A stretch of 64,000 bases of DNA from Escherichia coli O157:H7 (GCF_013167455.1 NZ_CP038328.1), one strand, 5' to 3'; shown: positions 1,034 through 34,769, counted from the first letter of the stretch. Numbers and translations: made by a program. Notes: generated by a model not told the origin, from the sequence alone.

Positions 1034-1906
1034 TTAGCGCCCCTTCTTTTTTCGCCCCGGCGAGGTAAAACGCTTACCGTTGGACGCCGGGCGACCGCCT
1101 TTTTCCGCCGTTTTTTCCATCTTAACGACTGGACGTTTGATGCCCGCTGTTTTCGGTTTGGCCTTCGCTTTAGGTTTTGCCTCGGAAGAGGAATTTTCGA
1201 TGAGCTTAAAGAGGTCGATTAACTCATCGTCGGTTAAATCGCGCCACTCCCCCAGCGGAATGCCGCTTAAGCTGACGTTCATAATGCGCGTACGTTCCAG
1301 CTTTTTCACTTCATAGCCGAAATGCTCGCACATGCGCCGGATCTGACGGTTCAGCCCCTGCACCAGGGTAATGCGGAAGACAAACGGCGCTTCTTTTTTG
1401 ACTTTGCACTTTTTAGTCACCGTCCCGAGGATCGGCACCCCCGCCCCCATACCACGAATAAATTCATCGGTAATCGGTTTATCGACCGTCACCAGATACT
1501 CTTTCTCATGATCGTTACCCGCACGGAGGATCTTATTCACCAGATCGCCGTGATTGGTGAGGAAAATCAGCCCCTGGGAGTCTTTATCCAGGCGGCCAAT
1601 CGGGAACACGCGTTTGCTGTGGTTAACGAAATCGACAATGTTATCGCGCTCGCCATCTTCGGTGGTGCTGACAATGCCTACGGGCTTGTTCAGGGCGATA
1701 AGTACCAAATCTTCGGCTTCCCGAGGCTCAATCAACTGACCGTTTACTTTCACAACGTCGCCGGGTTTCACCTGATCGCCAATGGTGGCTCGCTTGCCAT
1801 TAAGGAACACATTGCCTTGCTCGATATAGCGATCCGCTTCGCGGCGTGAGCAAATTCCGCTTTCGCTGATGTATTTATTTAAACGGACTGATGAGTCGGG
1901 CAGCAT
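1034..1906 (-). CDS. rluF: 23S rRNA pseudouridine synthase F
   Basis: 290-aa ORF with S4 domain and RluA-type core ([18 protein letters not shown]), lysine-rich C-tail; stop codon directly abuts yjbD stop. Confidence 0.92.
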
Positions 1907-2253
1907 AAATTCTCCTGTAAAACGCGGAATATACCGTACCTCTTAGCGGGGAAAAACAGGGTTATGCGGCAACGTCGAAATTAAATGTGATCTGCCACGC
2001 CTTTTATCACAAAAGTGTCTCCGGAAGTACAATGCAAATTTGCGTGGCAAAATAAGGATAATCAACATATTACGAATCGCTGCACACCTGTGCTGATAAC
2101 TACTGCGCAGAGAAACAAATGTGCAAGAGAAAGCGCTATTTCTCCCCATGCAAAGAGTGAAAAATCGCTTTGAAAGGCCATCATGATGGGGTTATATCAG
2201 ATCAAGCGGTGAGAAAGCGTATTTGCACAAATGTGCAGAACCAGGAGGCGGCA

Positions 2254-3201
2254 ATGGAAAACAGTGACGATATCCGTTTGATTGTGAAGATTGCCCAACT
2301 CTATTACGAACAGGATATGACGCAGGCGCAAATCGCGCGCGAACTGGGTATTTACCGCACCAACATCAGCCGCTTGCTTAAACGAGGCCGCGATCAGGGA
2401 ATTGTCACCATCGCCATCAACTATGACTACAACGAAAATCTCTGGCTGGAGCAGCAACTGAAGCAAAAGTTTGGCCTGAAAGACGTTGTGGTGGTGTCGG
2501 GAAATGATGAGGATGAAGAGACTCAACTGGCGATGATGGGGTTACACGGCGCGCAACTGCTGGATCGCTTGCTGGAGCCTGGCGATATTGTCGGTTTTTC
2601 CTGGGGTCGCGCGGTGAGCGCACTGGTTGAAAACTTGCCGCAGGCGGGGCAATCGCGGCAGTTAATCTGCGTACCAATTATTGGCGGACCGTCCGGTAAA
2701 CTCGAAAGCCGCTATCACGTAAACACATTAACCTACAGCGCGGCAGCGAAGCTGAAAGGGGAATCGCATCTCGCGGATTTTCCGGCTCTACTGGATAACC
2801 CATTAATTCGTAATGGGATCATGCAGTCTCAGCACTTTAAAACCATCTCTGCCTACTGGGATAATCTGGATGTCGCCCTGGTGGGAATTGGCTCACCGGC
2901 CATTCGCGACGGCGCTAACTGGCATGCGTTTTATGGTGGTGAAGAGAGTGACGACCTGAATGCCCGCCAGGTTGCTGGCGATATTTGCTCGCGCTTTTTT
3001 GATATTCACGGCGAAATGGTTGAAACGAATATGAGCGAAAAAACACTCTCTATCGAAATGAATAAATTAAAGCAGGCACGATATTCCATTGGCATTGCCA
3101 TGAGTGAAGAAAAATACAGCGGAATTATTGGTGCACTGCGTGGAAAATATATTAATTGTCTGGTAACGAATAGCAGCACAGCTGAACTATTACTGAAATA
3201 A
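2254..3201 (+). CDS. sorC: SorC-family transcriptional regulator of the L-sorbose operon
   Basis: Start chosen at internal ATG 2254 (MENSDDIRLIVKIAQLYYEQDMTQAQIARELGI...) preceded by AGGAGG at 2243-2248; N-terminal HTH plus sugar-phosphate-binding domain typical of SorC/DeoR. Confidence 0.85.
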   Translation: MENSDDIRLIVKIAQLYYEQDMTQAQIARELGIYRTNISRLLKRGRDQGIVTIAINYDYNENLWLEQQLKQKFGLKDVVVVSGNDEDEETQLAMMGLHGAQLLDRLLEPGDIVGFSWGRAVSALVENLPQAGQSRQLICVPIIGGPSGKLESRYHVNTLTYSAAAKLKGESHLADFPALLDNPLIRNGIMQSQHFKTISAYWDNLDVALVGIGSPAIRDGANWHAFYGGEESDDLNARQVAGDICSRFFDIHGEMVETNMSEKTLSIEMNKLKQARYSIGIAMSEEKYSGIIGALRGKYINCLVTNSSTAELLLK

Positions 3202-33447: not shown

Positions 33448-34769
33448 CGCGACAATTTTGCCAACAGCGTTTTGCGCGTGATCCCTAACTGACGGGCGGC
33501 TTCGGTTTTGTTGCCGCCCGTTTTCTCCAGTGCCGCCAGAATCACTTCTTTTTCGACTTCCACCAGCGGCTGAATATCCAGGCTTTGTGCCAGCGGGATC
33601 GGCGTACTGGCAATCGCCAGCGGCAGCTCGCGTTCGGAAATATATTCCCCAGTCAGCAGCACCACCGCCCGTTCCACCGCATTTTCCAGTTCACGAATAT
33701 TTCCCGGCCAGTCGTAATGAATCAACAGATCCATCGCCTGGGGCGTAAAGCCTTTTACCGCCTTGCGATTACGTTCAGCAAAGCGCTGCAGAAAATGGCC
33801 AGCCAGCAGAGGAATATCTTCCCGCCGTTGCCGCAGCGATGGTACTTCAATCGCCACCACGTTCAGGCGATAGTAGAGATCCTGGCGAAAACGCCCGGCA
33901 TTCACCTCTGCGGCAAGATCGCGATGGGTCGCGGCAATCAGCCGGACATCAACCGAAATAGTCTGGTTGCTACCGACACACTGAACTTCGCGCTCCTGAA
34001 TCGCACGCAGCAGACGCACCAGCATCATCGGCGAGATATCGCCAATTTCATCGAGAAACAACGTGCCGCCGTCCGCCTCAACAAAGCGCCCTTCCCGGCG
34101 TTTATCGGCTCCAGTAAACGCCCCTTTTTCGTGACCGAACAATTCAGATTCCAGCAAGGATTCGTTGAGTGCCGCACAGTTGAGCGTTACCAGCGGTTTT
34201 TCGCTACGTGCGCTACTGGCGTGAATCGCCCTGGCGACCAGCTCTTTACCGGTGCCGGAATCGCCGTGGATCAGCACCGTGGCTTCCGATGGCGCGACGA
34301 GGGCGATTTCACTGAGCAGGTGTTGCATCGCCGGGCTTTTACCGACCATACCGAACTGGCTGGCAGTCACCGCAGGCGTTTCAGCATCAATAATGTGCGT
34401 ATGCGCGAGCGCCTTTTCCAGCGTCGCCTGCAGGTTATCGAAATCCAGCGGCTTGATGAGATAATCCAGCGCCCCGGTTTTCAACGCCTCTACCGCCGTC
34501 TCGACGCTAGAGTATGCGGTCATAATCAGTACCGGAATCGCCGGATTTAACGCTTTGATCTCTTTTAGCGTGGCAATGCCGTCCATCTCCGCCATTCGCA
34601 CATCGCAAAGCACAAGATCAAAAACCCGCTCCCGCACCTGCTCCAGCGCCTGTCGCCCGCTGTTCGCCAGCGCGACGTTATAGCCCCAGCCGCGCAGCAA
34701 AGCCTGCAAAATAGTGCAGTGGCTAATGTCATCATCCACCACCAGAATATCGATATTATCGTGCGTCAT
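33444..34769 (-). CDS. zraR: sigma54-dependent response regulator ZraR
   Basis: 441-aa ORF with receiver domain, AAA+ sigma54-activator core (GESGTGKE-type Walker A, GAFTGA) and C-terminal HTH. Confidence 0.93.
   Translation of the reverse strand: MTHDNIDILVVDDDISHCTILQALLRGWGYNVALANSGRQALEQVRERVFDLVLCDVRMAEMDGIATLKEIKALNPAIPVLIMTAYSSVETAVEALKTGALDYLIKPLDFDNLQATLEKALAHTHIIDAETPAVTASQFGMVGKSPAMQHLLSEIALVAPSEATVLIHGDSGTGKELVARAIHASSARSEKPLVTLNCAALNESLLESELFGHEKGAFTGADKRREGRFVEADGGTLFLDEIGDISPMMLVRLLRAIQEREVQCVGSNQTISVDVRLIAATHRDLAAEVNAGRFRQDLYYRLNVVAIEVPSLRQRREDIPLLAGHFLQRFAERNRKAVKGFTPQAMDLLIHYDWPGNIRELENAVERAVVLLTGEYISERELPLAIASTPIPLAQSLDIQPLVEVEKEVILAALEKTGGNKTEAARQLGITRKTLLAKLSR

What the first reader, a model, noticed from the sequence alone, without database searches (positions are those of the whole stretch)
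1985..2240. Candidate SorC operators: repeated CAAATGTGCA motif and palindromes upstream of sorC
The sorC upstream region contains a perfect palindrome TGCACAAATGTGCA at 2224-2237 (overlapping the region just 5' of the sorC RBS), a second copy of the half-site ACAAATGTGCAAG at 2115-2127, a perfect palindrome GCAAATTTGC at 2034-2043, and an inverted repeat CTGCCACGC (1992-2000) / GCGTGGCAA (2042-2050). This arrangement suggests autoregulatory binding sites for the SorC regulator and possibly a promoter shared with or insulating from divergent rluF.
Basis: seen in the sequence. Interest (0 to 1): 0.3.

Follow-up and report, generated by a model that had tools for sequence, protein, structure and literature searches.

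The report
SorC operator sites before sor operon
The repeated TGCACA..TGTGCA words upstream of the E. coli O157 sorbose operon are very probably the binding sites of its own regulator SorC, an ordinary kind of feature, but they sit in a conserved multi-site control region with fixed spacing that has not been mapped by experiment in any paper I could read.

Summary
The window is E. coli O157:H7. The region is the 347-bp gap between rluF (-) and sorC, the first gene of sorCDFBAME.

**Observation.** All four words are at the stated coordinates. In one sequence only the 11-nt repeat beats chance (P~0.02).

**What conservation shows (40 enterobacterial species).**
- TTGCACAAATGTGCAG (O1, 2223-2238) is essentially invariant.
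- CAAATGTGCAA (O3, 2116-2126) is nearly invariant.
- GCAC-N4-GTGC occurs 76 times in 11.7 kb of sorC upstream DNA and once in 251 kb elsewhere.

**Link to SorC.**
- Firmicute SorC homologues with the identical recognition helix carry the same core.
- The motif has the geometry of the B. subtilis DeoR half-operator.

**Other conserved blocks.** These are a CRP-like site, an IHF-consensus site, a weak fourth SorC-like site and a weak sigma-70 promoter that would put O1 at about +20 to +33.

**Verdict.** The SorC operator reading is supported. The looping and activation mechanism is inferred. This is a new member of a known kind, of modest interest.

The parts
1034..1906 (-). rluF coding sequence (23S rRNA pseudouridine 2604 synthase), the divergent neighbour
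   Evidence: NCBIfam equivalog NF007784, E 2e-183. RefSeq annotation of the identical O157 locus.
1928..1933 (-). Candidate rluF -10 hexamer (TATATT on the minus strand), conserved across genera. It is not part of the sor module.
   Evidence: GGTATATT is conserved at a fixed distance from the rluF ATG in the species without an insertion. Promoter function is inferred.
1983..2004 (.). CRP-like site AAATGTGATCTGCCACGCCTTT. It marks the left edge of the conserved sor regulatory module.
   Evidence: It matches 16 of 22 positions of the CRP consensus, the only match of 16 or more in the 64-kb window. TGTGATC sits at a fixed offset in 37 of 40 species, and C1998, C2000 and TTT 2002-2004 are conserved. 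The right half is weak, with 3 core mismatches. CRP binding is inferred.
2005..2020 (.). O0: weak SorC-like pseudo-palindrome TATCACAAAAGTGTCT (core CAC-N4-GTG; most species have ACACAAAAGTGT)
   Evidence: CACAAAAGTG is conserved. It is the fourth-best position for a weight matrix trained on O1 and O2, with a median score above the 99.9th percentile of background. The assignment to SorC is tentative.
2032..2042 (.). Conserved block xTGCAAyTTTG. Its function is unexplained.
   Evidence: The block is conserved, but it is a perfect palindrome in only 5 of 37 species.
2049..2072 (+). IHF-consensus site: A-tract 2049-2052 followed by AATCAA-CATA-TTA (WATCAR-N4-TTR) at 2060-2072
   Evidence: The pattern sits at the same offset in 36 of 40 species. 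The four N positions have information content near 0, while the flanks are near the maximum. The window holds 7 matches where 3.6 are expected, so about 0.02 would be expected in this region. IHF binding is inferred.
2080..2095 (.). O2: SorC operator CTGCACACCTGTGCTG (GCAC-N4-GTGC).
   Evidence: GCAC-N4-GTGC lies at a fixed 143 bp (one species 144 bp) from O1 in 35 of the 37 species that have this part of the region. It is the second-best weight-matrix hit in the window.
2111..2126 (.). O3: SorC half-operator AGAAACAAATGTGCAA. The right arm CAAATGTGCAA is nearly invariant and the left arm is not conserved.
   Evidence: In Kluyvera the equivalent site is a full palindrome, TTGCACAAACGTGCAA.
2170..2198 (+). 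Candidate sor promoter: -35 TTGAAA (2170-2175), 17-nt spacer, -10 TATATC (2193-2198). The predicted start is near 2205. The -10 lies inside the invariant block GTTATATCAGATC (2191-2203).
   Evidence: It is the only sigma-70-like arrangement conserved across species, with a median score of 5.6 against a 99th-percentile background of 4.2. The hexamers are weak, the consensus scan did not call this promoter, and no experimental start site was found.
2223..2238 (.). O1: principal SorC operator TTGCACAAATGTGCAG. It lies between the predicted promoter and the ribosome-binding site.
   Evidence: GCACA[A/T]ATGTGCA is present in all 40 species 29-33 bp before the aligned start of sorC. It is the best weight-matrix hit in the window, at 25.0 bits.
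2243..2256 (+). sorC Shine-Dalgarno AGGAGG (2243-2248) and ATG (2254-2256)
   Evidence: Read from the sequence. The coding sequence is annotated at this ATG in RefSeq.
2254..3201 (+). sorC, a SorC/DeoR-subfamily regulator and first gene of sorCDFBAME
   Evidence: E 1.5e-182 to PDB 2w48, K. pneumoniae SorC, over the full length. The downstream genes are a sorbitol-6-P dehydrogenase subunit family SDR, sorbose/mannose PTS IIA-IID, and a gene that RefSeq annotates as L-sorbose-1-P reductase sorE (NCBIfam gave it only weak hits).

Best explanation
The TGCACA-N2-TGTGCA words are the operators of SorC, the regulator encoded by the first gene of the L-sorbose operon sorCDFBAME. The full 16-bp form is TTGCACA-AA-TGTGCAA.

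**The sites.**
- O1 (2223-2238) is a near-perfect palindrome.
- O2 (2080-2095) is a full site that keeps GCAC-N4-GTGC.
- O3 (2111-2126) is a strong half-site.
- O0 (2005-2020) is probably a weak fourth site.

**Binding (inferred).** Each site would bind a SorC dimer through its helix-turn-helix domains, as the B. subtilis DeoR dimer binds TTGAA-N6-TTCAA.

**Repression (inferred).** O1 lies between the likely promoter (-35 at 2170, -10 at 2193, start near 2205) and the sorC ribosome-binding site. SorC bound there, probably held cooperatively to O3 or O2 by the SorC tetramer through a 112- or 143-bp DNA loop that encloses the promoter, represses the operon. That includes repression of its own gene when L-sorbose is absent.

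**Activation (inferred).** With inducer the tetramer contact is loosened or rearranged. SorC at the upstream sites, helped by a CRP-like site and an IHF-type bend, would then assist a promoter with weak hexamers. That would account for the reported double role as repressor and activator.

**Status of the steps.**
- Shown: the motif family, its conservation, its specificity, its fixed spacing, and its link to the recognition helix.
- Inferred: SorC binding, the promoter position, looping, and the CRP and IHF roles.
For: **Context.**
- The layout is rluF | sorC-sorD-sorF-sorB-sorA-sorM-sorE.
- The SorC protein matches the solved K. pneumoniae SorC over its full length at E 1.5e-182.

**Conservation.**
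- The intergenic DNA is only about 50-65% identical outside Escherichia and its closest relatives (Pseudocitrobacter). Even so, O1 is invariant in 40 of 40 species, O2 keeps GCAC-N4-GTGC, and O3 keeps CAAATGTGCAA.

**Specificity.**
- GCAC-N4-GTGC occurs 76 times in 11.7 kb of sorC upstream DNA and once in 251 kb of flanking DNA.
- A matrix built from the other species ranks O1 and O2 first and second in the 64-kb window.

**Spacing.**
- O2-O1 = 143 bp and O3-O1 = 112 bp, with essentially no insertions or deletions across genera.
- Kluyvera has only two full sites, 101 bp apart, exactly 11 bp less.

**Link to the DNA-binding domain.**
- Four Firmicute homologues (43-48% identical) regulate different genes but share the identical helix GIYRTTISR. 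They carry GCACAATTGTGC-type sites, paired 19-20 bp apart.
- Of 19 distant homologues with other helices, 17 lack the motif.

**Family precedent.**
- The DeoR left half-operator is TTGAACAAAATTTCAA, and DeoR binds as a tetramer to two half-operators. Its base-contacting Arg residues align with SorC R35 and R40. CggR's operator lies at +32 to +77 (PMC11229326).
- SorC is reported as a repressor without L-sorbose and an activator with it (PMC12817954, citing Wohrl 1990).

**Promoter.** The only conserved sigma-70-like arrangement is at 2170-2198.
Against: - No binding or start-site data exist here. The two key papers (Wohrl 1990; de Sanctis 2009) are not held.
- The predicted -10 (TATATC) lacks the usual final T, and the tool's own scan did not call this promoter. 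O1 at +20 to +33 is therefore a model.
- The SorC crystal tetramer places its DNA-binding pairs about 70 A, or two turns, apart (PMC2943609). No enteric site pair has that spacing (31, 112 and 143 bp). A simple DeoR-like tandem operator does not fit, and bending or looping has to be invoked.
- 112 and 101 bp are integral numbers of turns only at about 11.2 bp per turn, not at 10.5.
- O1 is the strongest site, so it is unclear how an inducer would clear it.
- O0 scores weakly and could belong to another protein.
- The CRP-like site would be about 211 bp upstream of the predicted start, which is not a classical CRP position.
Confidence: 0.78

Rival explanations
1. The palindrome at 2223-2238 acts as an RNA hairpin in the sorC 5' leader, stabilising the mRNA or controlling translation next to the ribosome-binding site, rather than as a DNA operator.
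For: - The leader can fold a 7-bp stem with a 4-nt loop directly before the Shine-Dalgarno sequence.
- In most species the palindrome abuts the SD (TGTGCAGGAG).
- The same adjacency is seen in two Firmicute homologues.
Against: - The fold is not better than shuffles (z = -1.4), and there is no Rfam match.
- The stem never varies, so there is no covariation.
- The same word recurs 112 and 143 bp upstream of the predicted promoter. One copy is a half-site that cannot form a hairpin (O3).
- Sequence identity rather than pairing is what is conserved.
Confidence: 0.05
2. The sites are bound by a different transcription factor that is not SorC, for example a global sugar regulator or an unknown protein. 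SorC would act elsewhere, for instance at the GCAAyTTTG or AAAAT-NN-CTTT blocks.
For: - No direct binding evidence exists.
- Several other conserved blocks in the region have no assigned protein.
- TGCAA-type words are also used by unrelated regulators such as CytR (general knowledge).
Against: - The motif travels with the SorC recognition helix into Firmicutes, where the regulated genes are different.
- It is absent upstream of most homologues with other helices.
- It differs by one base per arm from the operator of the structurally solved paralogue DeoR.
- It is essentially absent elsewhere in 251 kb of enterobacterial flanks.
Confidence: 0.1
3. The repeats and palindromes are chance features of an AT-rich intergenic region and have no function.
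For: Taken singly, 6-bp-arm inverted repeats, 10-bp palindromes and 8-bp distant inverted repeats are common in shuffles (29%, 76% and 20%).
Against: For the TGTGCA family:
- A match to the motif occurs in 0.4% of shuffles.
- It is invariant across 40 species in otherwise diverged DNA.
- It is enriched 76 to 1.
Confidence: 0.02

Closest known systems
Bacillus subtilis DeoR operator of the dra-nupC-pdp operon (SorC/DeoR subfamily; PDB 8r7y, 7bhy; PMC11229326)
   Same: - The regulator has the same domain make-up: an HTH DNA-binding domain plus a NagB-like sugar-phosphate domain.
- The base-contacting arginines align.
- The half-operator is 16 bp with 5-7-bp arms: TTGAACAAAATTTCAA against TTGCACAAATGTGCAA, with 11 of 16 identical positions against O1.
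- A full palindrome is combined with degenerate or half sites.
- The family binds DNA as a tetramer.
   Different: - DeoR has one 39-bp operator with two halves about 22 bp apart that overlaps the -35. It is a pure repressor, and its gene lies upstream of the operon it controls.
- Here there are three or four sites spread over 230 bp at 31, 112 and 143 bp.
- The best site lies downstream of the predicted promoter.
- The regulator is the first gene of its own operon and is reported to activate as well.
Bacillus subtilis CggR operator of the gapA operon (SorC/CggR subfamily; PMC2943609, PMC11229326)
   Same: - The regulator is the first gene of the operon and is autoregulated.
- The operator lies downstream of the transcription start (+32 to +77).
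- Repression depends on an inducer-sensitive dimer-dimer bridge.
   Different: - CggR has a different, winged-helix DNA-binding domain and a different motif.
- Its two halves are directly adjacent.
- No distant sites, CRP-like element or IHF-like element are described.
AraC at araBAD (O2-I1 loop; textbook knowledge)
   Same: This is a functional analogy only. One protein is both repressor and activator. A distal site is looped to a promoter-proximal site. CRP is involved. Site spacing is phase-sensitive.
   Different: The protein family is unrelated. Looping at sor is inferred from fixed spacing alone and has not been shown.

Membership tests
SorC/DeoR-subfamily operator | A cognate regulator with a SorC/DeoR-type N-terminal HTH and a NagB-like sugar-binding domain is encoded at the locus | tested here: met
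   Full-length match to K. pneumoniae SorC (2w48, E 1.5e-182), and matches to DeoR 8r7y and LsrR. The DNA-binding domain aligns with the DeoR domain, with conserved R35 and R40.
SorC/DeoR-subfamily operator | A palindromic half-operator of about 16 bp with 5-7-bp arms resembling TTGAA-N6-TTCAA | tested here: met
   O1 is TTGCACAAATGTGCAG and O2 is CTGCACACCTGTGCTG. The DeoR sequence comes from PMC11229326.
SorC/DeoR-subfamily operator | Two half-operators about two helical turns apart, matched to one tetramer | tested here: not met
   Enteric centre-to-centre distances are 31, 112 and 143 bp. The feature is met only in the Firmicute homologues, at 19-20 bp. The SorC tetramer's domain spacing is about 70 A (PMC2943609).
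SorC/DeoR-subfamily operator | The motif co-varies with the recognition helix across homologues | tested here: met
   All 4 Firmicute homologues with the helix GIYRTTISR have the motif. Of 19 homologues with other helices, 17 lack it.
SorC/DeoR-subfamily operator | The operator overlaps or adjoins the promoter of the regulated operon | tested here: inconclusive
   The promoter is only predicted (TTGAAA-17-TATATC). No start-site data were found.
SorC/DeoR-subfamily operator | Direct, inducer-sensitive binding by the purified regulator | not testable with these tools
   This needs EMSA or footprinting.
CRP (cAMP receptor protein) site | Match to the 22-bp consensus AAATGTGATCTAGATCACATTT with both TGTGA/TCACA halves | tested here: inconclusive
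   The match is 16 of 22, the best in the window. The left half is perfect and conserved. The right half has 3 of 5 core mismatches in E. coli, with only the two C positions conserved.
CRP (cAMP receptor protein) site | Centred at a class I or class II position relative to a start site | tested here: not met
   The centre at 1993.5 is about 211 bp upstream of the predicted sor start. It is about 72 bp from a predicted rluF start. Both start sites are only predicted.
IHF site | A WATCAR-N4-TTR core with an upstream A/T-rich tract | tested here: met
   AATCAACATATTA at 2060-2072 with AAAA at 2049-2052. It sits at the same offset in 36 of 40 species, with variable N4 positions. Binding was not tested.
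Known structured RNA (Rfam) | A match to a covariance model, or covariation in the stem | tested here: not met
   There is no meaningful Rfam match in 1850-2350. The stem is invariant, and the fold z-score is -1.4.

The most novel reading that the evidence does not exclude
The 255-bp module (1983-2238) is a fixed-geometry nucleoprotein switch. SorC tetramers would choose between alternative site pairs: O1-O3 or O1-O2 loops that enclose the promoter, against upstream pairs brought together by an IHF bend next to a CRP site. L-sorbose would flip the protein from repressing loop to activating complex. This would be an AraC-like light switch built from a SorC-family tetramer. It would explain the long-known double role of SorC, which the tandem-operator model from DeoR and CggR does not.
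Probability: 0.2. Interest if true: 0.5.

Novelty: new member of a known kind. Interest (0 to 1): 0.33.

Why it matters
SorC gave its name to a large family of sugar and quorum-sensing regulators. In the papers I could read, however, operators are described only for DeoR and CggR (PMC2943609), and LsrR binding-site work is cited in a reference list (Xue et al. 2009). No operator for SorC itself is described.

A defined 16-bp motif, four candidate sites and a predicted promoter turn the old question of how one SorC protein both represses and activates the sor operon into a small set of direct experiments.

The sor operon is also a marker enriched in high-risk E. coli lineages (PMC12817954), so its control region has some practical interest. 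As a genomic feature it remains an ordinary case of a regulator with binding sites in front of its own operon.

Tried and rejected
**Readings considered and dropped**
- An upstream sigma-70 promoter with -10 GATAAT/CAGAAT at 2057-2062. No acceptable -35 exists at 16-19 bp, and the conservation pattern (AATCAR, four free positions, TTA) fits the IHF consensus better.
- The promoter-like hit TTATCA-18-TACAAT. Its -10 is not conserved.
- A sigma-54 reading of TTGCA in O1. There is no GG element 12 bp upstream, and that stretch is not conserved.
- My idea that O0 and O3 lie symmetrically about the IHF core. The expected bend centre (about 2057) does not give matched distances.
- A degenerate GTGCAA-like half-site about 23 bp upstream of O1's right arm, and the xTGCAA block 17 bp from O0 as partner half-sites. 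The scores are too low and the spacing is inconsistent.
- Weight-matrix hits at 34704, 9857 and 26501. The first two lie inside long ORFs; 26501 was not checked. All were treated as chance.

**Searches that led nowhere**
- The literature search for LsrR site sequences was unproductive.
- Wohrl 1990 and de Sanctis 2009 are not held.
- No start-site paper was found.
- The exact K. pneumoniae 2w48 protein is not in the contig index. The closest locus used is K. oxytoca, at 92% identity.
- RegPrecise could not be consulted. Its 2009 paper mentions 'Sorci', an author, not SorC.

Full report
**1. Where we are.**
- The 347-bp query region is 100% identical to E. coli O157:H7 chromosomes. It is present in 2863 of 5426 complete E. 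coli genomes.
- The local order is lysC, yjbD, rluF (minus strand, 1034-1906), then on the plus strand sorC (2254-3201), sorD, sorF, sorB, sorA, sorM and sorE.
- NCBIfam matches confirm rluF, sorD and the four PTS subunits. The last gene had only weak family matches and is called sorE from the RefSeq annotation of the identical locus.
- The SorC protein matches the crystallised K. pneumoniae SorC (PDB 2w48) over all 315 residues at E 1.5e-182. More distant matches are B. subtilis DeoR and E. coli LsrR.
- The finding therefore lies in the rluF-sorC intergenic region, 1907-2253.

**2. The observation.**
- All four words are at the stated coordinates.
- TGCACAAATGTGCA is 6-bp arms around a non-symmetric AA, not a strictly perfect palindrome.
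- The distant inverted repeat is 8 of 9.
- In 1000 dinucleotide shuffles of the region:

| Feature | Share of shuffles with it |
|---|---|
| Exact direct repeat of 11 nt | 2.4% |
| Match to TGCACANNTGTGCA with at most 1 mismatch (two observed) | 0.4% |
| Inverted repeat with 6-bp arms | 29% |
| 5+5 palindrome | 76% |
| 8-bp inverted repeat within 60 nt | 20% |

- Window-wide pattern counts are not enriched on their own.

**3. Comparative test.**
- One scan of species-representative genomes returned 62 loci encoding relatives of SorC. Of these, 39 are enterobacterial orthologues at 70-99% protein identity, from Escherichia, Pseudocitrobacter, Citrobacter, Klebsiella, Raoultella, Enterobacter, Kluyvera, Cedecea, Mangrovibacter, Pantoea, Erwinia, Serratia and others.
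- Outside Escherichia and Pseudocitrobacter the upstream DNA is only about 50-65% identical to the window.
- GCACA[A/T]ATGTGCA is nonetheless present about 30 bp before sorC in all 40 sequences. GCAC-N4-GTGC sits 143 bp upstream of it in nearly all. CAAATGTGCAA sits 112 bp upstream.
- GCAC-N4-GTGC occurs 76 times in 11.7 kb of upstream DNA and once in the other 251 kb of these loci.
- A weight matrix built from the other species' O1 and O2 ranks the window's O1 (25.0 bits) and O2 (17.1 bits) first and second in all 64 kb. O3 ranks seventh.
- Across species the third- and fourth-best positions in the region are O3 and a weaker site O0 (CACAAAAGTG, 2008-2017). Both score above the 99.9th percentile of background.
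- GCAAATTTGC is a perfect palindrome in only 5 of 37 species. The 1993-2000/2042-2049 pairing survives only in the window and its nearest relative. Those two items are chance symmetry, although the block GCAAyTTTG itself is conserved for an unknown reason.

**4. Link to SorC.**
- The same scan brought in four Firmicute homologues (43-48% identical). They sit next to GFO/IDH/MocA oxidoreductase and RpiA-like genes, not a sorbose PTS.
- Their recognition helix, GIYRTTISR, is identical to that of enteric SorC.
- All four carry GCACAATTGTGC-type sites upstream, each with a second full or half site 19-20 bp away. In two of them the second site abuts the ribosome-binding site, as O1 does.
- Of 19 more distant homologues with other helices, 17 have no such word within 300 bp upstream.
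- The motif has the layout of the solved DeoR half-operator. That sequence is TTGAACAAAATTTCAA, with base contacts in TTGAACA, against TTGCACAAATGTGCAA here.
- The DeoR arginines said to contact bases align with SorC R35 and R40 (PMC11229326).
- In the papers I could read, family operators are described only for DeoR and CggR (PMC2943609; PMC11229326). LsrR binding-site work is cited in a reference list only (Xue et al. 2009). None of these papers describes an operator for SorC.
- The 2025 study of the E. coli sor system does not treat the promoter or the operator.

**5. The rest of the module.** The information-content profile shows further conserved blocks at fixed offsets, with essentially no insertions or deletions over 240 bp.
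- AAATGTGATCTGCCACGCCTTT (1983-2004) is the best match to the 22-bp CRP consensus in the window, at 16 of 22. Its right half is weak.
- AATCAA-CATA-TTA (2060-2072), preceded by an A-tract, fits the IHF consensus WATCAR-N4-TTR in 36 of 40 species. The four free positions are fully variable.
- AAAAT-NN-CTTT lies at 2161-2171.
- The invariant GTTATATCAGATC lies at 2191-2203.
- My scan with textbook hexamer frequencies finds one conserved sigma-70-like arrangement: TTGAAA (2170-2175), 17 nt, TATATC (2193-2198). Its median score is above the 99th percentile of background. The hexamers are weak, as expected for an activator-dependent promoter.
- That promoter would start transcription near 2205. The resulting positions are:

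| Element | Position relative to a start at 2205 |
|---|---|
| O1 | +20 to +33 |
| O3 | -86.5 |
| O2 | -117.5 |
| O0 | -192.5 |

- Kluyvera has a shorter region with only two full sites, 101 bp apart. That is exactly 11 bp less than the 112 bp elsewhere.
- rluF is the divergent neighbour in 34 of 39 loci. It has its own conserved -10, TATATT on the minus strand at 1928-1933, outside the sor module.
- In the five loci without rluF, conservation still begins at TGTGATC. That block therefore belongs to the sor module.

**6. Mechanism.**
- Shown: a family of three to four related sites that is specific, conserved, fixed in spacing and tied to the SorC helix.
- Inferred: SorC dimers bind each site. 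The tetramer (PDB 2w48; the family behaviour is described in PMC11229326 and PMC2943609) bridges O1 to O3 or O2, enclosing the promoter. This represses the operon and sorC itself without L-sorbose.
- Also inferred: inducer weakens or rearranges the bridge. Upstream-bound SorC, with CRP and an IHF bend, then assists the weak promoter.
- This would fit the reported repressor-plus-activator behaviour and induction at entry into stationary phase.
- Weak points:
  - There are no start-site data.
  - The -10 is atypical.
  - No enteric site pair has the roughly two-turn spacing that the crystal tetramer suggests.
  - The phase argument needs about 11.2 bp per turn.

**7. Rivals.**
- An RNA hairpin at O1 is possible. 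However, it is not better than shuffles, has no Rfam match and shows no covariation. It also cannot explain the upstream copies or the half-site.
- A different protein cannot be excluded without binding data. That reading is disfavoured by the helix-motif link and the likeness to the DeoR operator.
- Chance is excluded for O1-O3.

**8. Verdict.** Two of its four items are discarded. This is a new, computationally defined member of a known kind of regulatory element. Interest is modest.

Noticed in passing
L007, L009, L014, L015, L018, L019, L022, L023, L026, L044: about 110 bp directly upstream of the rluF ATG: In about ten species a repeat of roughly 125 bp is inserted between the conserved rluF -10 (GGTATATT) and the rluF ribosome-binding site. 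It reads ...AGGCGGCAAGGGAGCGAATCCC..GGAGCATAG..CTATGTGAC..GGGTGAGTGAG..GCCAAC..CAGAGACA.CTTGAAGGATGA.GTG. From memory it resembles an ERIC/IRU enterobacterial intergenic repeat. It lengthens the rluF-sorC gap to 470-560 bp without disturbing the sor module.
   Followed up: partly
window 1989-1992 and 2200-2203: Two GATC (Dam) sites lie inside blocks that are nearly invariant across genera. One is in the CRP-like half-site TGTGATC. The other is in GTTATATCAGATC, between the predicted -10 and the predicted start. The first is explained by the CRP consensus. The second, like the 13-nt invariant block as a whole, is longer than a -10 needs and is unexplained.
   Followed up: no
L033-L035 (Kluyvera), about 230 bp upstream of sorC: Kluyvera sor loci (SorC 70% identical) have a short regulatory region with only two full palindromes, TTGCACAAACGTGCAA and O1, 101 bp apart. 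They have no CRP-like, O0, IHF-like or O2 blocks. This is a natural minimal version of the module.
   Followed up: partly
L039-L042 (Terrilactibacillus, Pseudalkalibacillus, Bacillus sp., Paenibacillus): SorC homologues with the same recognition helix and the same operator core sit beside GFO/IDH/MocA oxidoreductase and ribose-5-phosphate-isomerase-like genes rather than a sorbose PTS. This is an uncharacterised sugar pathway apparently under a SorC-type regulator. In L040 and L041 the two sites appear to carry the -35 (TTGCAC) and -10 (TACATT) of the promoter.
   Followed up: partly
L053 at -31 and L056 at -55 relative to the regulator gene (Anaerolineae MAGs): Two distant homologues with a different helix (GISRVKVYRLLR) have GCACAGTTGTGT just upstream. 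This may be a related operator variant, or it may be chance.
   Followed up: no
window 2032-2042 and 2161-2171: Two conserved blocks have no assigned function. The second is AAAAT-NN-CTTT, just upstream of and overlapping the predicted -35; it may be an UP-like element.
   Followed up: partly
window 1983-2004 relative to 1921: The CRP-like site is centred about 72 bp upstream of the start predicted from the rluF -10, which is a classical class I distance. It could therefore serve rluF, or both divergent units, rather than sor alone. Both start sites are only predicted.
   Followed up: no
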